Source: Escherichia phage vB_EcoM-LTH02. Taken from it: DNA of 64,000 nt. Numbering within the stretch: the stretch's first letter is position 1; every line of letters begins with the position of its first letter. Shown piece by piece: positions 24,347 to 28,539 of the stretch. The DNA is taken from sequence record PP430346, one strand, 5' to 3'. Under the pieces are notes generated by a model. It saw nothing but the letters and a program-made list of their open reading frames with translations. It was not told the DNA's origin and searched no databases. Both the position numbers and the translations under genes were made by a program.

Positions 24347-24676
24347 TTAATCTGCCAACCTTAAATTAAAATTAACACCAAATTTTTCACATACTTCCAA
24401 CATAAACTCAAGAGAGACATTACCAGTGAGGTTGATTATGTTGGATACACGAGCCTGAGAGATACCACAAATTTTAGCAACTTGCTCTTGAGAAAGACCT
24501 CTGGATTTAATCTCTCTCTTAAAACGATGTGCAACGAAGTCTCTCATTTCGTCTACATCCATTGGACAAATATAACTCTCCATTTCAGCCTCTCTGTCAG
24601 CCTCCCAATCATCTTGTGGAGCATAAGGGTCAAAAACCTCATTCATCTTTCTTCTTCCGTTTTCGTGAAGTGTCAA
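24347..24676 (-). CDS. HTH (XRE/Cro-C1 type) DNA-binding protein; possible alternative start at 24646
   Basis: LSQEQVAKICGISQARVSNIINLTGNVSLEFMLEVCEKFGVNFNL is a classic helix-turn-helix XRE signature. Confidence 0.55.
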   Translation of the reverse strand: MTLHENGRRKMNEVFDPYAPQDDWEADREAEMESYICPMDVDEMRDFVAHRFKREIKSRGLSQEQVAKICGISQARVSNIINLTGNVSLEFMLEVCEKFGVNFNLRLAD

Positions 24677-24851
24677 TCAATGAATCTATGTTTGTAGCCC
24701 TAACCTTTTCACGTTCATCGTTAAGATAATCATCAAGAGCCTTTTCAATCTGTGAATCATCTTGACAGATAACTGTAAAGACTGTAAAGCCGTCTGTATC
24801 GTCAATTATCTTACCATAACCGCTTCTGGGATGTAACTTTTTAAGAGCCAT
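24639..24851 (-). CDS. Small protein partner upstream of the HTH gene
   Basis: 70-aa ORF overlapping the start of the HTH gene on the same strand. Confidence 0.35.
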   Translation of the reverse strand: MALKKLHPRSGYGKIIDDTDGFTVFTVICQDDSQIEKALDDYLNDEREKVRATNIDSLIDTSRKRKKKDE

Positions 24852-24852
24852 A

Positions 24853-25236
24853 TCAAATACCTGTGCAGCTTCTGTTTTCTAAGAAATACTCAACACCATA
24901 CATAGCTTTTTGCATCAAATCTTCTTTAAACTGAATACGATGATTGAGCATAGCCTGTACATCAATATCATCAGGGTGCTTCTCTTTAATATTTGCAGAT
25001 TGCAGGAAATACTCTGCAAGAACACGATACTGATAGTCAGTTACCTTATCAGTCATCTCTGTTAAAGACTCTTCAGAGATTGGTTTAAGTAACTCACCAT
25101 TAGCTAGAGCAACACCTTTAACAATCTGGCAAGTATCTTCTGGAACACCTGATAAGTCCACATTTGGAAGTTCTGTTGCATTGACTGGTAAATTCATTGC
25201 CATAACCATTGCAGCAGCTAATAAAATCTTTTTCAT
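24853..25236 (-). CDS. Secreted/periplasmic protein with Sec signal peptide
   Basis: N-terminus MKKILLAAAMVMAMNLPVNA-TE has the n/h/c-region layout of a signal peptide with an AxA-type cleavage site. Confidence 0.45.
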   Translation of the reverse strand: MKKILLAAAMVMAMNLPVNATELPNVDLSGVPEDTCQIVKGVALANGELLKPISEESLTEMTDKVTDYQYRVLAEYFLQSANIKEKHPDDIDVQAMLNHRIQFKEDLMQKAMYGVEYFLENRSCTGI

Positions 25237-25280
25237 AATGACCTCAAAGTTATATTAAATTTTGTATTACGTTGAGTATA

Positions 25281-25309
25281 AAAATAAGCTATAACACCTG
25301 ACTTGTCAA
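25281..25309 (-). promoter_or_regulatory. Candidate sigma70-like promoter for gene 24853-25236
   Basis: On the minus strand TTGACA (25309-25304), 17-nt spacer, TATTTT (25286-25281). Confidence 0.3.
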
Positions 25310-25327
25310 CAGATTTTATAGCTTATT

Positions 25328-25374
25328 TTGGCAGATTTTTTTATAAGGCTACTGCCATCCTTCCATACATTACC
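25328..25374. repeat. Conserved 47-bp block X, copy 1
   Basis: TTGGCAGATTTTTTTATAAGGCTACTGCCATCCTTCCATACATTACC; identical to 26863-26909; contains inverted repeat TGGCAG/CTGCCA. Confidence 0.7.
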
Positions 25375-25576
25375 TTACCACACCCTACCATACCTAACCA
25401 AACTACACCATACAATACCTTGTTAAAAGACCTTGTTTAAATGCCTTTTAAAAAGGTAAGTCTCATTTTAATGTAGCTGAGACTAACTACCCATACATTA
25501 CCTTACCATACCAGACCTCACCCTACCTTAACTTACCTTACTCTATCCTACCAAACACCACTTAAAAACCCTCTTA
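25355..25576. repeat. G-free CA/T-rich tracts of degenerate TACC-like units (island 1)
   Basis: Plus strand has no G at 25355-25421 and only one G (25514) across 25482-25576; built of TACC(A/T)-like units. Confidence 0.65.
25423..25492 (-). terminator. Conserved module Y copy 1: minus-strand intrinsic terminator with conserved downstream leader
   Basis: On the minus strand, hairpin GGUA..AGUCUCA-loop-UGAGACUUACC followed by UUUUU; 70-bp block differs from copy at 26968-27037 at 2 positions. Confidence 0.5.
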
Positions 25577-25594
25577 GAAGACTCTTAAGTGATG
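25559..25594. repeat. Conserved block Z copy 1 (CACTTAA...TTAAGTG inverted repeat)
   Basis: CACTTAAAAACCCTCTTAGAAGACTCTTAAGTGATG; repeated with one indel at 27144-27180; followed by a second hairpin with loop TTTTTATGTAGC. Confidence 0.55.
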
Positions 25595-25697
25595 TAATCG
25601 GATTTTTATGTAGCTCCGATTAACTACCCATACCAAGCCTAACCTGACCGCACCAAACTTTACAACACCACACCATACCTGACCATACCAAACCTCA

Positions 25698-25749
25698 TTA
25701 AAAGACCCTCTTAAAGACCTTTTAAAAAGGAGCCTCCGAAGAGGCTACC
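25698..25749 (-). terminator. Y-like module copy 3: terminator directly downstream of gene 25758-26198
   Basis: Same leader TTAAAAGACC(C)TCTTAAAGACCTTTTAAAAAGG joined to a different hairpin (GGAGCCTC-CGAA-GAGGCT); on the minus strand the hairpin is followed by UUUUU. Confidence 0.5.
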
Positions 25750-25757
25750 TAGTCAAC

Positions 25758-26198
25758 TTAGAAAGGCTTTCTACGTTGCTTGTTAATGTTAGCTTTCATA
25801 GCAGCTAAGTGGTTTTGCTGTTCAATTAGTCGTGAACGTTCTTGGTGGCTAAGTGCCATAGTGTTCACATTCTCAATCGCTTGAGTGGCTTGCTTTAAAG
25901 CACGACCAATCTTACCAGACATTTTACGTTTTGCAATAGTTGCTTGATGTTTAGGTTCAACCACACGATAACCAACACCCATTGAAGCAACCAGATAAAT
26001 CTTCTCTTCTTTAAGAAGTTTTTCAATGAACTTCTCAAGCCGGTTTAGACGTGTAAGCGCATAAGCCTTCATCTCATCTTCGTACTTAACAATGTCGCCT
26101 TGATAAGTTGGCTTCACAATACCTAAGAAGGTATCCATCTCAGAGTGTGATACAGTGTCACCGTAACTAAACTTTGCTGCTAATGCTTTTGTATTCAT
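25758..26198 (-). CDS. Hypothetical protein (cassette gene 2)
   Basis: 146-aa ORF; ATG at 26198; flanked by structured non-coding islands. Confidence 0.45.
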   Translation of the reverse strand: MNTKALAAKFSYGDTVSHSEMDTFLGIVKPTYQGDIVKYEDEMKAYALTRLNRLEKFIEKLLKEEKIYLVASMGVGYRVVEPKHQATIAKRKMSGKIGRALKQATQAIENVNTMALSHQERSRLIEQQNHLAAMKANINKQRRKPF

Positions 26199-26200
26199 AA

Positions 26201-26806
<606 letters not shown>

Positions 26807-26862
26807 TTAGTTGATTGTTAAGTTGTTTGTAAAGAACCCTCAACAGAAGACTCTTTAGAAAC

Positions 26863-26909
26863 TTGGCAGATTTTTTTATAAGGCTACTGCCATCCTTCCA
26901 TACATTACC
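26863..26909. repeat. Conserved 47-bp block X, copy 2
   Basis: Identical by eye to 25328-25374. Confidence 0.7.
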
Positions 26910-26967
26910 AAACAGTACTGTGCCACAACACACCATACCCAACCCCACCTAACTCTACCACACCTCA

Positions 26968-27037
26968 TTAAAAGACCTTGTTTAAAGACCTTTTAAAAAG
27001 GTAAGTCTCATTTTAATGTAGCTGAGACTAACTACCC
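26968..27037 (-). terminator. Conserved module Y copy 2: minus-strand terminator downstream of DNA ligase
   Basis: Same hairpin (stem AGTCTCA/TGAGACT, loop TTTTAATGTAGC) and leader as 25423-25492. Confidence 0.5.
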
Positions 27038-27143
27038 TTACCAGACCTAGCCTTGCCTTACCATACCGTACTTTACCTTACCGTACCGTACTTTACCCTA
27101 CCGTACCGGACAATACTTAACCCGACCTCGCCCTACCGGACAT
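27027..27143. repeat. G-poor TACC/CCG-rich tract (island 2) including a 20-bp tandem direct repeat at 27066-27105
   Basis: CCGTACTTTACCTTACCGTA followed by CCGTACTTTACCCTACCGTA (1 mismatch). Confidence 0.6.
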
Positions 27144-27180
27144 CACTTAAAAACCCTCTTAGAAAGACTCTTAAGTGATG
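27144..27180. repeat. Conserved block Z copy 2
   Basis: CACTTAAAAACCCTCTTAGAAAGACTCTTAAGTGATG followed by hairpin GGTGAGTAC...GTATACTCACC. Confidence 0.55.
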
Positions 27181-27245
27181 CTGGTGAGTACCCGTTGGTT
27201 TATGCTGCTCAGTATACTCACCAAATTTTCTATGTCAACAACTTT

Positions 27246-28346
27246 TTATTCGTAGTCTCGAATAACTAACCCAACAGGGAACTGTAAAGAACCTTTACGA
27301 GTCATCTTCTGGAACTGAACCGTCAAAGGTTTCCCGATAAACTCTTCAGGATGTTCAGCAAGATACTGTTTCTTCTCATGAGTAGTCTTCCATGAGACAT
27401 CCACAAAGACGTTAGGAAGAGTCTCTACAACAAACTTGCCATGACCACGCTTATCAGTCTTTACACCAGTCACTTTAAACTCTTCAGTGTGCATCTTCTT
27501 GTGCTTAATCAAGAAGTATGAACGGTGACAACACTCATAGAAGGAGTCTTCAGAGATTGAACGGTACATTGCACCTTCAAACTTAGCTTCAACCCACTTA
27601 TCATGAGCTTCATCAAACTCTTCCCAAGAATTTACACGACGAGACTTAACAGGGACAACTTTGCAGCCATCTCTAAAGTCATTCAATGGTGAAGTCTCAA
27701 TAATATCTCTACGCTCAGGCCACGTTTTAGTACTGTCACAGATATCATACCAGTAGAACTGGAGTAGATGTCGGTCTGGATTGTCAGCATTCTTAATCAT
27801 AGACACAATATCTTCTAAGTCCCAACCATGAGCATAAATCTCACCATCAAAATCTTCGACCTGTGGATGCAATTTAAGCAACAAAAGTAAATCTGGGATT
27901 AGTTCTGCTGGGACGTTGTAAACAGTATTCTCACGAGAATAAGCCGTGAAGCTAACTGAATCAGCATCCCTTGAAATTCTACAACGGACACCATCAAGTT
28001 TTGGTTGAGCATCAGCAGGGAACTTCAAATACTTTGCATGACTAACCTTTGCAGCATCATGAGCAAGCTGTACACCTACCTTTTCAGTGTTCTGTGCAGA
28101 CTCTTTTGTGTAAGCATAACCTTTACGGTCAACTTGCTTTTTATACTTAGCAGCAACTTCAAAGAGAGCTTGCTGTTCAGCATTACGCCCATTCTTTTTA
28201 CCGATGTTCTTCGGTTCTGCTGTATACTCTTCAAACATCATCTTGCCATTTTCTTTACCGTAGGTTGTAATAACTTTGTCACCTACAGCAACGCATGACC
28301 AGACGTTAAAAGAGCCGTCTTTATTTTGTTTGTACAGTATTGTCAT
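27246..28346 (-). CDS. ATP-dependent DNA ligase (T7-like); ATG at 28346 preferred over 28382
   Basis: Adenylation motif KLDGVR (PKLDGVRCRI); GAGGA RBS 6 nt upstream of the ATG at 28346, which also removes overlap with the upstream ORF. Confidence 0.75.
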   Translation of the reverse strand: MTILYKQNKDGSFNVWSCVAVGDKVITTYGKENGKMMFEEYTAEPKNIGKKNGRNAEQQALFEVAAKYKKQVDRKGYAYTKESAQNTEKVGVQLAHDAAKVSHAKYLKFPADAQPKLDGVRCRISRDADSVSFTAYSRENTVYNVPAELIPDLLLLLKLHPQVEDFDGEIYAHGWDLEDIVSMIKNADNPDRHLLQFYWYDICDSTKTWPERRDIIETSPLNDFRDGCKVVPVKSRRVNSWEEFDEAHDKWVEAKFEGAMYRSISEDSFYECCHRSYFLIKHKKMHTEEFKVTGVKTDKRGHGKFVVETLPNVFVDVSWKTTHEKKQYLAEHPEEFIGKPLTVQFQKMTRKGSLQFPVGLVIRDYE

Positions 28347-28347
28347 T

Positions 28348-28539
28348 TTATTCCTCTGAGTGATACCAAGTATTGCAAGCATTACATGCGTAAAGCTCTA
28401 AGTCATTTTTATCTGGTTTATGAAAACAGTTTGCTCCGCAGTGGCAACGAAACGGCTTTCCACCAACTGTCAGGATGAAGGATTGAACCTTTCCATCAGG
28501 AGTCCGTACAGCATTTTTATGCTTGTCTTCTTTATTCAT
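28348..28539 (-). CDS. Small zinc-finger protein
   Basis: 63 aa with CHCGANC...CNAC cysteine/histidine cluster. Confidence 0.35.
   Translation of the reverse strand: MNKEDKHKNAVRTPDGKVQSFILTVGGKPFRCHCGANCFHKPDKNDLELYACNACNTWYHSEE

What the first reader, a model, noticed from the sequence alone, without database searches (positions are those of the whole stretch)
25423..25492. Repeated terminator modules with a conserved loop sequence (TTT(T/A)ATG(T/C)(A/T)GC) and conserved downstream leader
The Y module is a minus-strand intrinsic terminator (hairpin plus UUUUU) present twice with identical hairpin and a conserved 32-nt downstream sequence, and a third time with a different hairpin (25698-25749). 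Three independent hairpins in the islands carry near-identical loops (TTTTAATGTAGC, TTTTTATGTAGC, TTTATGCTGC) despite different stems. Conservation of loop and leader rather than just stem stability suggests sequence-specific recognition by a protein or RNA (processing site, antiterminator or regulatory RNA).
Basis: seen in the sequence. Interest (0 to 1): 0.55.

Follow-up and report, generated by a model that had tools for sequence, protein, structure and literature searches.

The report
VIPR guide-RNA tails, not plain terminators
The repeated hairpins are the conserved pseudoknot tails of small guide RNAs in a phage VIPR system, a CRISPR-like RNA-guided silencing system first described in 2026 preprints, so the conserved loop is already explained.

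Summary
Two 70-nt modules (25423-25492, 26968-27037) are 68/70 identical, and a third hairpin (25597-29) has a different stem but the same loop.

The window is a Felix O1-like phage. The hairpins lie in two intergenic islands flanking two genes:
- 26201-26788 is 191/195 identical to the solved "SUSP1 Vipr protein" (PDB 36pp).
- 25758-26198 is its accessory gene vap1, assigned by position.

On the minus strand each hairpin follows a 53-103-nt tract of phased GGTNN repeats. This is the vrRNA architecture in two 2026 bioRxiv preprints: YNNGG repeats whose NN bases guide Vipr to DNA, then an invariable ~40-nt 3' tail with a pseudoknot.

Loop CUAC pairs with upstream GUAG. Across four tail classes in 17 genomes, 3 of 4 pseudoknot pairs and 6 of 8 stem pairs covary.

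The window encodes five guides. The "32-nt leader" is a separate inter-guide hairpin whose role the preprint text does not address.

A terminator role is plausible only for the Y-type copies and is untested.

Verdict: real feature, regulatory-RNA idea right, terminator framing too narrow, already known. Interest 0.3.

The parts
27211..27238 (-). Sigma70-type promoter P_B (TTGACA-16-TATACT) at the head of the upstream guide array
   Evidence: 11 of 12 consensus matches. Conserved in all 17 genomes. Function inferred.
27183..27222 (-). 40-nt hairpin GGTGAGTA...TACTCACC that contains the -10 box of P_B.
   Evidence: No repeat tract upstream, no pseudoknot partner and no U tract.
27141..27180 (-). 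Inter-guide hairpin HP2, X type
   Evidence: Fold. Consensus hairpin of 16 pairs with one compensatory pair (CG 8, UA 6, UG 2).
27038..27140 (-). vrRNA-B1 repeat tract, about 21 YNNGG units
27002..27037 (-). vrRNA-B1 3' tail, class 1: pseudoknot GTAG/CTAC plus hairpin GTCTCA/TGAGAC (second Y copy)
26963..27001 (-). Inter-guide hairpin HP2, Y type (the 'leader' of the second Y copy)
26900..26962 (-). vrRNA-B2 repeat tract, about 13 units
26864..26899 (-). vrRNA-B2 3' tail, END type: pseudoknot AAGG/CCTT plus hairpin TGGCAG/CTGCCA
26829..26858 (-). Degenerate HP2X-like element between the B2 tail and the vipr ribosome-binding site
   Evidence: Repeat family D5.
26201..26788 (-). vipr gene (195 aa, RAMP/Cas7-like)
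   Evidence: 191/195 identical to PDB 36pp 'SUSP1 Vipr protein', E 7e-128. AF2 model with pLDDT 93.6 matches Csm3/Cas7 chains.
25758..26198 (-). vap1, the Vipr accessory gene (146 aa)
   Evidence: Second gene of the two-gene locus, as in SUSP1. 100% amino-acid identity in 108 of 117 records. Assignment is by synteny, not tested.
25731..25746 (-). Canonical intrinsic terminator T1 (AGCCUC-UUCG-GAGGCU followed by CCUUUUU) after vap1
   Evidence: The only terminator-like site called in 24800-27400.
25693..25730 (-). Inter-guide hairpin HP2, Y type, here following T1 rather than a tail
25630..25692 (-). vrRNA-A1 repeat tract, about 13 units
25595..25629 (-). vrRNA-A1 3' tail, class 2: pseudoknot GTAG/CTAC plus hairpin ATCGGA/TCCGAT, with no U tract
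25556..25594 (-). Inter-guide hairpin HP2, X type
   Evidence: Fold z-score -4.6 together with the tail.
25493..25555 (-). vrRNA-A2 repeat tract, about 13 units
25457..25492 (-). vrRNA-A2 3' tail, class 1. This is the hairpin of the finding
   Evidence: Identical to the SUSP1 downstream-guide tails through the hairpin.
25418..25456 (-). Inter-guide hairpin HP2, Y type. This is the 'conserved downstream leader' of the finding
25365..25417 (-). vrRNA-A3 repeat tract, about 11 units
25329..25364 (-). vrRNA-A3 3' tail, END type (AAGG/CCTT; TGGCAG/CTGCCA)
25275..25329 (-). Promoter P_A (TTGACA-17-TATTTT by the scan; TATACT lies 3 nt downstream) inside a 20-nt inverted repeat. It drives the downstream genes and bounds the array
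   Evidence: inverted repeat I3. Conserved in relatives.

Best explanation
The hairpin with the conserved loop is the invariable 3' tail of a VIPR guide RNA (vrRNA). The window carries a type II, SUSP1-clade VIPR locus on the minus strand, in this order: promoter, two guides, vipr, vap1, terminator T1, three guides. Each guide has a tract of about 11-21 YNNGG repeats. According to the 2026 preprints, one Vipr protomer binds each repeat, sequesters the GGY bases and presents the NN bases. The NN bases read double-stranded DNA with one target base skipped per repeat, and binding silences transcription of competing phages or satellites. The tract is followed by the tail. In the tail a 4-bp helix between GUAG (just after the last repeat) and CUAC (in the hairpin loop) makes an H-type pseudoknot with the 6-bp hairpin. 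[quoted passage not shown] That is why the loop and the 5' flank are conserved while the stem can change. The '32-nt leader' is a separate 16-bp hairpin (HP2, in X and Y types) lying between guides. I infer that it marks where guides are separated, by host RNase cleavage or, in Y-type copies, by termination at the U5 run. Shown here: protein identity, repeat phasing, tail covariation and locus synteny. Taken from the preprints: RNA expression, Vipr binding, the DNA-reading code and the pseudoknot cap. Inferred: the role of HP2 and how the 3' ends are formed.
For: The protein encoded at 26201-26788 is 191/195 identical to PDB 36pp 'SUSP1 Vipr protein' (profile E 2.3e-81). Every residue the structural preprint names as contacting GGY lies in an identical stretch of that alignment. 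The AF2 model (pLDDT 93.6) matches Csm3/Cas7 RAMP chains. The tracts are phased: G 0.79, G 0.92, T 0.88, then any base at the last two positions. The frame runs unbroken into the tail, and guide lengths are 9-21 units. In 61 tails from 17 genomes the pseudoknot is fully Watson-Crick in 59. On 16 distinct tails, 3 of 4 pseudoknot pairs and 6 of 8 stem pairs have changes on both sides, 88.5% of cells pair against 25-43% when the partner is slid, and 0 of 500 shuffles reach the observed score. A blind DNA-pattern scan for (GGTNN)6GGT hit at least 120 viral contigs. Among the 39 contigs with heterogeneous tracts that were analysed, 31 encode a homologue of this protein; where I checked positions (e.g. 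L113, L122, L129, L132) it ends 4-46 nt upstream of the array on the same strand. SUSP1 itself (L106) has one guide upstream and three downstream of vipr-vap, matching the four ~100-nt vrRNAs seen by sRNA-seq. The preprints report an invariable ~40-nt tail with a pseudoknot that is resolved by cryo-EM.
Against: No expression or end-mapping data exist for this phage. The functional claims rest on two non-peer-reviewed preprints whose figures I could not see. The cryo-EM pseudoknot is that of SUSP1 vrRNA1, which on my reading of L106 has the END-B tail type, not the class-1 tail of the finding. I found no convincing natural target for the five guides using exact 1-nt-skip patterns. The covariation comes from only four paralogous tail classes, so independent events are few. 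One tail (dune) has a pseudoknot mismatch and one (SflM004) looks degenerate.
Confidence: 0.9

Rival explanations
1. The modules are ordinary Rho-independent terminators duplicated between two intergenic regions, and the loops look alike only because the copies are recent duplicates.
For: Y-type copies have a hairpin followed by CCUUUUU. In the non-pseudoknot fold GGUA pairs with UACC, which puts the U5 run directly after the extended stem. In one relative's record (ASO1B) the two predicted terminators in these islands fall, by my coordinate conversion, on HP2X and on a repeat tract, not on the tails.
Against: The loop is 12 nt and the fold is not better than shuffles (z -1.1 to -1.6). The scan does not call these hairpins. 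The class-2 and END tails share the architecture but have no U tract. Stems differ by compensatory changes while the loop and flank stay fixed and pair with each other. The same tails belong to RNAs that co-purify with Vipr in SUSP1.
Confidence: 0.25
2. The islands are mainly recombination substrates: repeated promoter and stem-loop cassettes that shuffle the two-gene cassette in and out, as PeSL cassettes do in T4-type phages.
For: All 230 records that match this region also match the island, but only 117 of them carry vipr and vap. In phages lacking the genes, a single hybrid island joins the P_B start to the A-type end (EC6, GEC_vB_BS, UAB_Phi87). Module number varies from 0 to 2 per island.
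Against: This explains copy-number variation but not the GGY phasing, the pseudoknot covariation, or the linkage to Vipr homologues in unrelated phages. Recombination is better seen as a by-product of the repeats.
Confidence: 0.1
3. The modules are nut-like processive antitermination sites, with a boxB-like hairpin, a boxA-like sequence and a GU-rich boxC-like tract. Alternatively, the C-rich complementary strand is a Rho-loading site or an R-loop replication origin.
For: GGUCUUUAAACAA in HP2Y resembles boxA GCUCUUUAACAA (my own comparison, from memory). The complementary strand is C-rich and G-poor: C makes up only about 0.13 of the N positions on the sense strand.
Against: No antiterminator protein is linked to the locus. 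The boxA-like bases sit inside a conserved hairpin stem. The tract is accounted for as the Vipr-binding repeat. No Rfam family matches.
Confidence: 0.03

Closest known systems
3' tail pseudoknot of SUSP1-clade (type II) VIPR vrRNAs (bioRxiv 10.64898/2026.04.26.720920 and 10.64898/2026.04.26.720927)
   Same: The Vipr protein is 98% identical. The locus order is the same: guide(s), vipr, vap1, guide array. The repeats are YNNGG. The ~40-nt invariable tail has a hairpin and pseudoknot. SUSP1's own downstream guides carry the identical class-1 hairpin.
   Different: The window has five guides (2 + 3) rather than four (1 + 3). Guide B1 has about 21 repeats, outside the stated 9-16 range. The last guide of the upstream island has the A-type END tail instead of the B-type seen in most relatives.
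CRISPR crRNA repeat handle bound by RAMP proteins (Cas7/Csm3 backbone)
   Same: A variable guide is capped by a conserved structured element. The protein has a RAMP fold and oligomerises along the RNA.
   Different: The guide is noncontiguous, with NN read every 5 nt. There is a single protein and no cas1/cas2. The conserved element is a 3' pseudoknot, not a repeat hairpin cut by Cas6. The 'spacers' are phased repeats, not captured foreign DNA.
Hammerhead-ribozyme-interspersed and staggered VIPR arrays (types I and V in the preprint)
   Same: A structured element sits between successive guides, in the position HP2 occupies here.
   Different: HP2 is a plain 16-bp hairpin with no match to any Rfam ribozyme. 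Any cleavage would need a host enzyme.
Rho-independent terminators
   Same: Y-type tails and T1 are each a hairpin followed by a U run.
   Different: The tail has a 12-nt loop, a weak stem, and its loop is engaged in a pseudoknot. The other tail classes lack U runs.
PeSL promoter-stem-loop cassettes of T4-type phages (recalled from memory, Arbiol et al. 2010; not read here)
   Same: Repeated intergenic regulatory modules flank optional gene cassettes.
   Different: The tails have no promoter of their own, and the modules encode guide RNAs.

Membership tests
VIPR system, type II (SUSP1 clade) | A Vipr protein (minimal RAMP with RRM core, G-loop and thumb) encoded next to the RNA array | tested here: met
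   191/195 identity to PDB 36pp. The AF2 model matches Csm3/Cas7 chains with Foldseek probability 1.00.
VIPR system, type II (SUSP1 clade) | The GGY-contacting residues named in the structural preprint (H17, R138, D177, W178, R179, C173, E71, M72) are conserved | tested here: met
   All lie in stretches identical to the SUSP1 chain. The only four differences are at SUSP1 positions 18, 119, 189 and 190.
VIPR system, type II (SUSP1 clade) | vrRNA tract of tandem YNNGG repeats (stated range 9-16) with fixed GGY and hypervariable NN | tested here: met
   Position frequencies are G 0.79, G 0.92 and T 0.88, with any base at the two N positions. Tracts cannot be aligned between phages whose flanking genes are 95% identical. 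Guide lengths are 9-21 units, so B1 at about 21 exceeds the stated range.
VIPR system, type II (SUSP1 clade) | Invariable ~40-nt 3' tail forming a hairpin plus pseudoknot | tested here: met
   59 of 61 tails have a perfect 4-bp pseudoknot. 3 of 4 pseudoknot pairs and 6 of 8 stem pairs covary, and the slid controls collapse.
VIPR system, type II (SUSP1 clade) | An accessory vap gene beside vipr | tested here: met
   The 146-aa gene lies directly downstream, as in SUSP1. It is present in the same 117 Ounavirinae records as vipr. Its fold and DNA binding were not tested.
VIPR system, type II (SUSP1 clade) | Guides expressed as ~100-nt RNAs that co-purify with Vipr | not testable with these tools
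   Shown for SUSP1 by sRNA-seq and pull-down in the preprint. No data exist for this phage.
VIPR system, type II (SUSP1 clade) | Natural DNA targets that match the NN code with a 1-nt skip | tested here: inconclusive
   Exact patterns of 11-12 NN for guides A1, A2, A3, B1 and B2 gave zero hits, or hits in unrelated low-GC contigs: four did not extend beyond the searched pattern and one extended by a single unit. The E. coli pangenome could not be scanned with gapped patterns.
Rho-independent (intrinsic) terminator | A stable GC-rich stem with a 3-8-nt loop, directly followed by a U tract | tested here: not met
   The tails have a 12-nt loop and a 6-8-bp mixed stem. U5 follows only in Y copies and only after the extended stem. 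The class-2 and END tails have no U tract. The scan calls only T1 at 25731-25746.
Rho-independent (intrinsic) terminator | RNA 3' ends map to the U tract in vivo | not testable with these tools
   Needs Term-seq or sRNA-seq end mapping.
CRISPR array | Identical direct repeats separating unique spacers of foreign origin, with cas1/cas2 and an effector module | tested here: not met
   The variable segments are phased GGY/NN repeats. The only RAMP gene is vipr. The neighbouring genes have no Cas-related Pfam match.
Known structured RNA families (Rfam 15, including ribozymes and riboswitches) | A covariance-model match at or near the family's gathering score | tested here: not met
   No match at gathering threshold in 64 kb. 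In the islands the best E-value match is 0.12, at bit scores well below threshold.
lambda/rrn nut antitermination site | A single-stranded boxA (GCUCUUUAACAA-like) beside a boxB hairpin | tested here: inconclusive
   A boxA-like string is present in HP2Y, but it lies within a conserved stem.

The most novel reading that the evidence does not exclude
The parts of the modules that the preprint text leaves unaddressed may form a maturation device specific to type II VIPR arrays. These parts are the X/Y inter-guide hairpins and the choice between the tail's pseudoknot fold and its extended-hairpin-plus-U5 fold. If so, tail folding would decide between termination and read-through into the next guide, and HP2 would be the host-RNase entry site. 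In addition, about half of Felix O1-like phages have lost vipr and vap but keep one or two 'orphan' guides with tails. These might borrow Vipr from co-infecting relatives, which would be guide-only parasitism.
Probability: 0.15. Interest if true: 0.6.

Novelty: already known. Interest (0 to 1): 0.3.

Why it matters
The finding shows that a VIPR locus can be recognised from raw sequence alone by its tail hairpins and GGT-phased tracts. It confirms, with independent covariation statistics on 61 tails, the pseudoknot proposed from five sequences and seen by cryo-EM. It also points at what the preprint text does not address for the best-studied VIPR clade: how individual guides are cut or terminated out of the array, and what the inter-guide hairpins do. 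A further open question is why many relatives keep guides without the protein. For annotators, these 400-520-bp 'empty' intergenic regions in more than 200 Felix O1-like genomes should be labelled as vrRNA arrays. Current records label parts of them only as 'repeat_region' (dune, Andreotti, wV8) or place predicted terminators inside them (ASO1B).

Tried and rejected
1. A 6-bp pseudoknot GUAGUU/AGCUAC. Variants in VSe102, nataliec and garuso change the outer two positions without compensation. Only the 4-bp core GUAG/CUAC is supported.

2. An IMG/VR scan for GTAGTTA-N7-GCTACAT. It returned 95 single-hit contigs, which look like chance matches at 14 specified bases and were of no use.

3. Hypotheses considered before the protein link emerged: a TRAP-like ring protein, a Rho rut site on the complementary strand, an R-loop origin, G-quadruplexes, sigma- or pause-site arrays, a boxB-boxA-boxC nut site, a BREX-motif decoy, and pairing with tRNA CCA ends. 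All were dropped once the tract was tied to Vipr.

4. Rfam at gathering and at permissive thresholds: nothing.

5. Target prediction with the 1-nt-skip code:
   - viral contigs: A1 gave 0 hits and A2 gave 1 hit, in a contig whose ORFs look AT-rich (GC not computed), with the skipped base at codon position 2 and no extension;
   - species-representative genomes: A1 gave 0 hits and A3 gave 2 hits, in Ruminococcus and Flavobacteriaceae MAGs;
   - metagenomes: B2 gave 0 hits and B1 gave 2 hits that did not extend.
   All hits were judged to be chance.

6. Self-target scan of the 64-kb window: no score above the shuffled-guide maximum.

7. Literature. The Felix O1 genome paper lists no terminator or repeat here. 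The UAB_Phi87 and PhageMaP papers say nothing relevant. One paper search was wasted on over-broad terms.

8. Own promoters for each guide. No site in HP2 passes the consensus scan, and hand inspection finds only weak -35/-10 candidates.

Full report
**Where we are.** The 2.5 kb around the finding matches 230 phage records at 88-94% identity, nearly all Felix O1-like myophages of the Ounavirinae. All genes here are on the minus strand: DNA ligase 27246-28382, two genes of unknown function at 26201-26803 and 25758-26198, then small genes including an HTH regulator. Two long intergenic islands flank the two unknown genes, island B at 26804-27245 and island A at 25237-25757. The motifs of the finding occur only in these islands within the 64-kb window, and the nearest relative has none in the rest of its genome.

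**Checking the observation.**
- On the minus strand, 25423-25492 and 26968-27037 are 68/70 identical.
- The hairpin GUCUCA/UGAGAC with loop GCUACAUUAAAA occurs twice. A hairpin with a different stem (AUCGGA/UCCGAU) and loop GCUACAUAAAAA lies at 25597-25629.
- The combined flank-plus-loop pattern matches three times, against none in 100 shuffles.
- The "leader" CCUUUUUAAAAGG... also follows the GC-rich UUCG hairpin at 25731-25746.

It has neither the upstream flank nor the context of the others.

**Anatomy on the transcribed strand.** Reading the minus strand in the window and 16 relatives gives a strict grammar.
- Each island opens with a start element. In island B this is the promoter hairpin plus an X-type hairpin. 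In island A it is terminator T1 plus a Y-type hairpin.
- Then comes a G/T-rich tract.
- Then come zero to two units of [hairpin HP1 + second hairpin HP2 + tract].
- Each island closes with an END hairpin.

The tracts have a strict 5-nt phase. Position frequencies are G 0.79, G 0.92 and T 0.88, with any base at the last two positions. The frame runs unbroken from the 3' arm of HP2 into the GG that precedes HP1. Tract sequences cannot be aligned between phages whose flanking genes are about 95% identical, yet the GGT phase is kept.

**From tract to protein.** An exact scan of IMG/VR for (GGTNN)6GGT stopped at its 120-contig limit, where far fewer than one hit is expected by chance. About half the hits are plain microsatellites. 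Fifty-three contigs carry heterogeneous tracts, often in arrays punctuated by short conserved motifs. An all-against-all BLASTP of the flanking ORFs found one protein family in 32 of 40 loci, counting the window. The window's member is the 200-aa ORF at 26201-26803. In the four loci whose coordinates I compared (L113, L122, L129, L132) the homologue ends 4-46 nt upstream of the array on the same strand. The family has more than 500 members and no Pfam domain, and it has a glycine-rich C-terminal motif.

**Identification.**
- A profile of the family hits one solved structure, PDB 36pp "SUSP1 Vipr protein" (E 2.3e-81).
- The window protein, starting from the ATG at 26788, is 191/195 identical to that chain.
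- Its AlphaFold model (pLDDT 93.6) matches Csm3/Cas7 subunits of type III and type VII CRISPR effectors.

Two 2026 bioRxiv preprints describe the system, called Viral Interference Programmable Repeat, or VIPR.
- Vipr is a minimal RAMP protein.
- vrRNAs consist of 9-16 YNNGG repeats followed by an invariable ~40-nt 3' tail. In the SUSP1 clade this tail contains a pseudoknot.
- One Vipr protomer binds each repeat, hides the GGY bases and presents the NN bases.
- The NN bases read double-stranded DNA while skipping every third target base, and binding silences transcription.
- Predicted natural targets are mostly a satellite phage.
- In SUSP1, sRNA-seq found one ~100-nt vrRNA upstream and three downstream of vipr-vap. 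The SUSP1 locus I fetched (L106) has exactly that layout.

**What the finding is.** HP1 is the vrRNA tail. Before reading the preprints I had noticed that GUAG, just 5' of the hairpin, is complementary to CUAC in the loop. In 61 tails from 17 genomes there are four classes:

| Class | Pseudoknot | Hairpin stem |
|---|---|---|
| 1 | GUAG/CUAC | GUCUCA/UGAGAC |
| 2 | GUAG/CUAC | AUCGGA/UYCGAU |
| END-A | AAGG/CCUU | UGGCAG/CUGCCA |
| END-B | GUGG/CCAC | UGGUAG/CUACCA |

The pseudoknot is fully Watson-Crick in 59 of the 61 tails. On 16 distinct sequences:
- 3 of 4 pseudoknot pairs and 6 of 8 stem pairs have changes on both sides;
- 88.5% of cells pair, against 25-43% when the 3' partner is slid by 1-3 columns;
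- none of 500 shuffles reaches the observed covariation score.

So the loop is conserved because it is one strand of a pseudoknot, and the stem varies because only its pairing matters. An outer extension to 6 bp is not supported. Only four paralogous classes contribute, so the number of independent events is small.

**The five guides of the window.** Tract plus tail:
- B1, 27002-27140, about 21 repeats;
- B2, 26864-26962;
- A1, 25595-25692;
- A2, 25457-25555 (its tail is the hairpin of the finding);
- A3, 25329-25417.

vipr is 26201-26788. vap1 is 25758-26198, assigned by synteny and by its presence in the same 117 records as vipr.

**The "leader".** HP2 is a separate hairpin of 16 predicted pairs, in two related types, X and Y. 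Most pairs are invariant and several are G-U, which would be A-C mismatches on the other strand. Each type has one pair with compensatory changes. In Moogle and SflM004 a 22-nt insertion sits at the apex of one copy. HP2 precedes every tract and follows most tails. It occupies the position that hammerhead ribozymes hold in other VIPR types, but it matches no Rfam family. The preprint text I could read says nothing about how type II guides are matured or terminated. That HP2 is a processing or termination element is my inference.

**The terminator question.**
- T1 at 25731-25746 is the only consensus terminator in the region.
- Y-type tails can adopt an alternative fold without the pseudoknot. 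In it GGUA pairs with UACC and U5 follows directly. A terminator role for these copies is therefore possible, and it would compete with the pseudoknot.
- The fold is not better than shuffles (z about -1.1 to -1.6). The 12-nt loop also exceeds the 3-8 nt accepted by the consensus scan.
- The class-2 and END tails have no U run.

**Limits.**
- I could not see the preprints' figures, and both are unreviewed.
- No natural target was found for the five guides. Exact 1-nt-skip patterns gave no hits, or gave chance-like hits in unrelated low-GC contigs. The E. coli genome collection cannot be scanned with gapped patterns.
- No guide matches the window itself above the shuffled control, consistent with avoidance of self-targeting, but this is weak evidence.

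**Verdict.** The terminator label is too narrow, and one of the three loops is a different element. The system is already described for a phage whose Vipr protein is 98% identical, so I rate it as already known, with modest residual interest in guide maturation and in orphan guides.

Noticed in passing
window 25275-25329 (-), with the HTH gene at 24347-24676 (-): Promoter P_A sits inside a 20-nt, 90% complementary inverted repeat (AAAATAAGCTATAAAATCTG / CAGGTGTTATAGCTTATTTT) that brackets the -35 box and fills the spacer. It looks like an operator. A Cro/CI-type HTH protein is encoded four genes downstream. It is conserved in all 17 genomes examined.
   Followed up: partly
L107 (EC6) 2436-2708, L108 (GEC_vB_BS) 2349-2630, L112 (UAB_Phi87) 2286-2845: All 230 records that match this region also match the island, but only 117 of them carry vipr and vap. 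The vipr-less phages examined have a single hybrid island (P_B start joined to an A-type end) that still holds one or two guides with tails. These orphan guides have fewer canonical YNNGG units (26/41 = 0.63) than guides in vipr-positive phages (535/674 = 0.79). They could be decaying relics of a deletion by recombination between the two arrays, or guides used in trans.
   Followed up: partly
window 25758-26198 (-): The putative vap1 protein is 100% identical at the amino-acid level in 108 of 117 records, across three genera, while its DNA differs by 3-6%. Neighbouring genes drop to 70-80% nucleotide identity in the distant genera, but vipr and vap stay at 91-96%. This indicates very strong purifying selection, recent horizontal spread of the cassette, or both.
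   Followed up: partly
window 27038-27140 (-): Guide B1 has about 21 repeat units, and first guides of 19-21 units also occur in two relatives (ASO1B 21, SflM004 20). This exceeds the 9-16 range given in the preprint.
   Followed up: no
L122 3396-3843 (-), L132 2217-3406 (+), L210 3233-4394 (+): Unrelated IMG/VR contigs carry arrays of 7 to 18 GGT-phased tracts separated by short motifs without hairpins, for example AAGGCTAATGGGT in L122 and AAGGAATGGTTTAATGAATTTAATTT in L132. L122, L132 and L210 each encode a Vipr homologue; in L122 and L132 it lies directly upstream of the array. A second protein family of about 160 aa recurs beside the arrays in 6 loci. These are probably other VIPR types and vap genes.
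   Followed up: partly
window 26963-27001 and 25418-25456 (-): HP2Y contains GGUCUUUAAACAA and GGUCUUUUAACAA, which resemble the boxA antitermination sequence GCUCUUUAACAA (recalled from memory). They lie within the hairpin stem, and most relatives read AAUAAGG or AAUGAGG at the second site. The resemblance is unexplained and may be coincidence.
   Followed up: no
L003 (wV8) 916-1072, and likewise L100, L102, L109, L111, L112: Several relatives have an extra ~150-nt insert between the ligase gene and P_B. It encodes a hydrophobic ~48-aa ORF (MFSTVILFILVVFVLSYVASKLL...). The window lacks it.
   Followed up: no
L233 5062-5093 (-): Guide A2's eleven tail-proximal NN pairs match an IMG/VR contig exactly under the 1-nt-skip rule. 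However, the contig's ORFs look AT-rich (GC not computed), the next units do not match, and the skipped base falls at codon position 2. The match is judged to be chance.
   Followed up: yes
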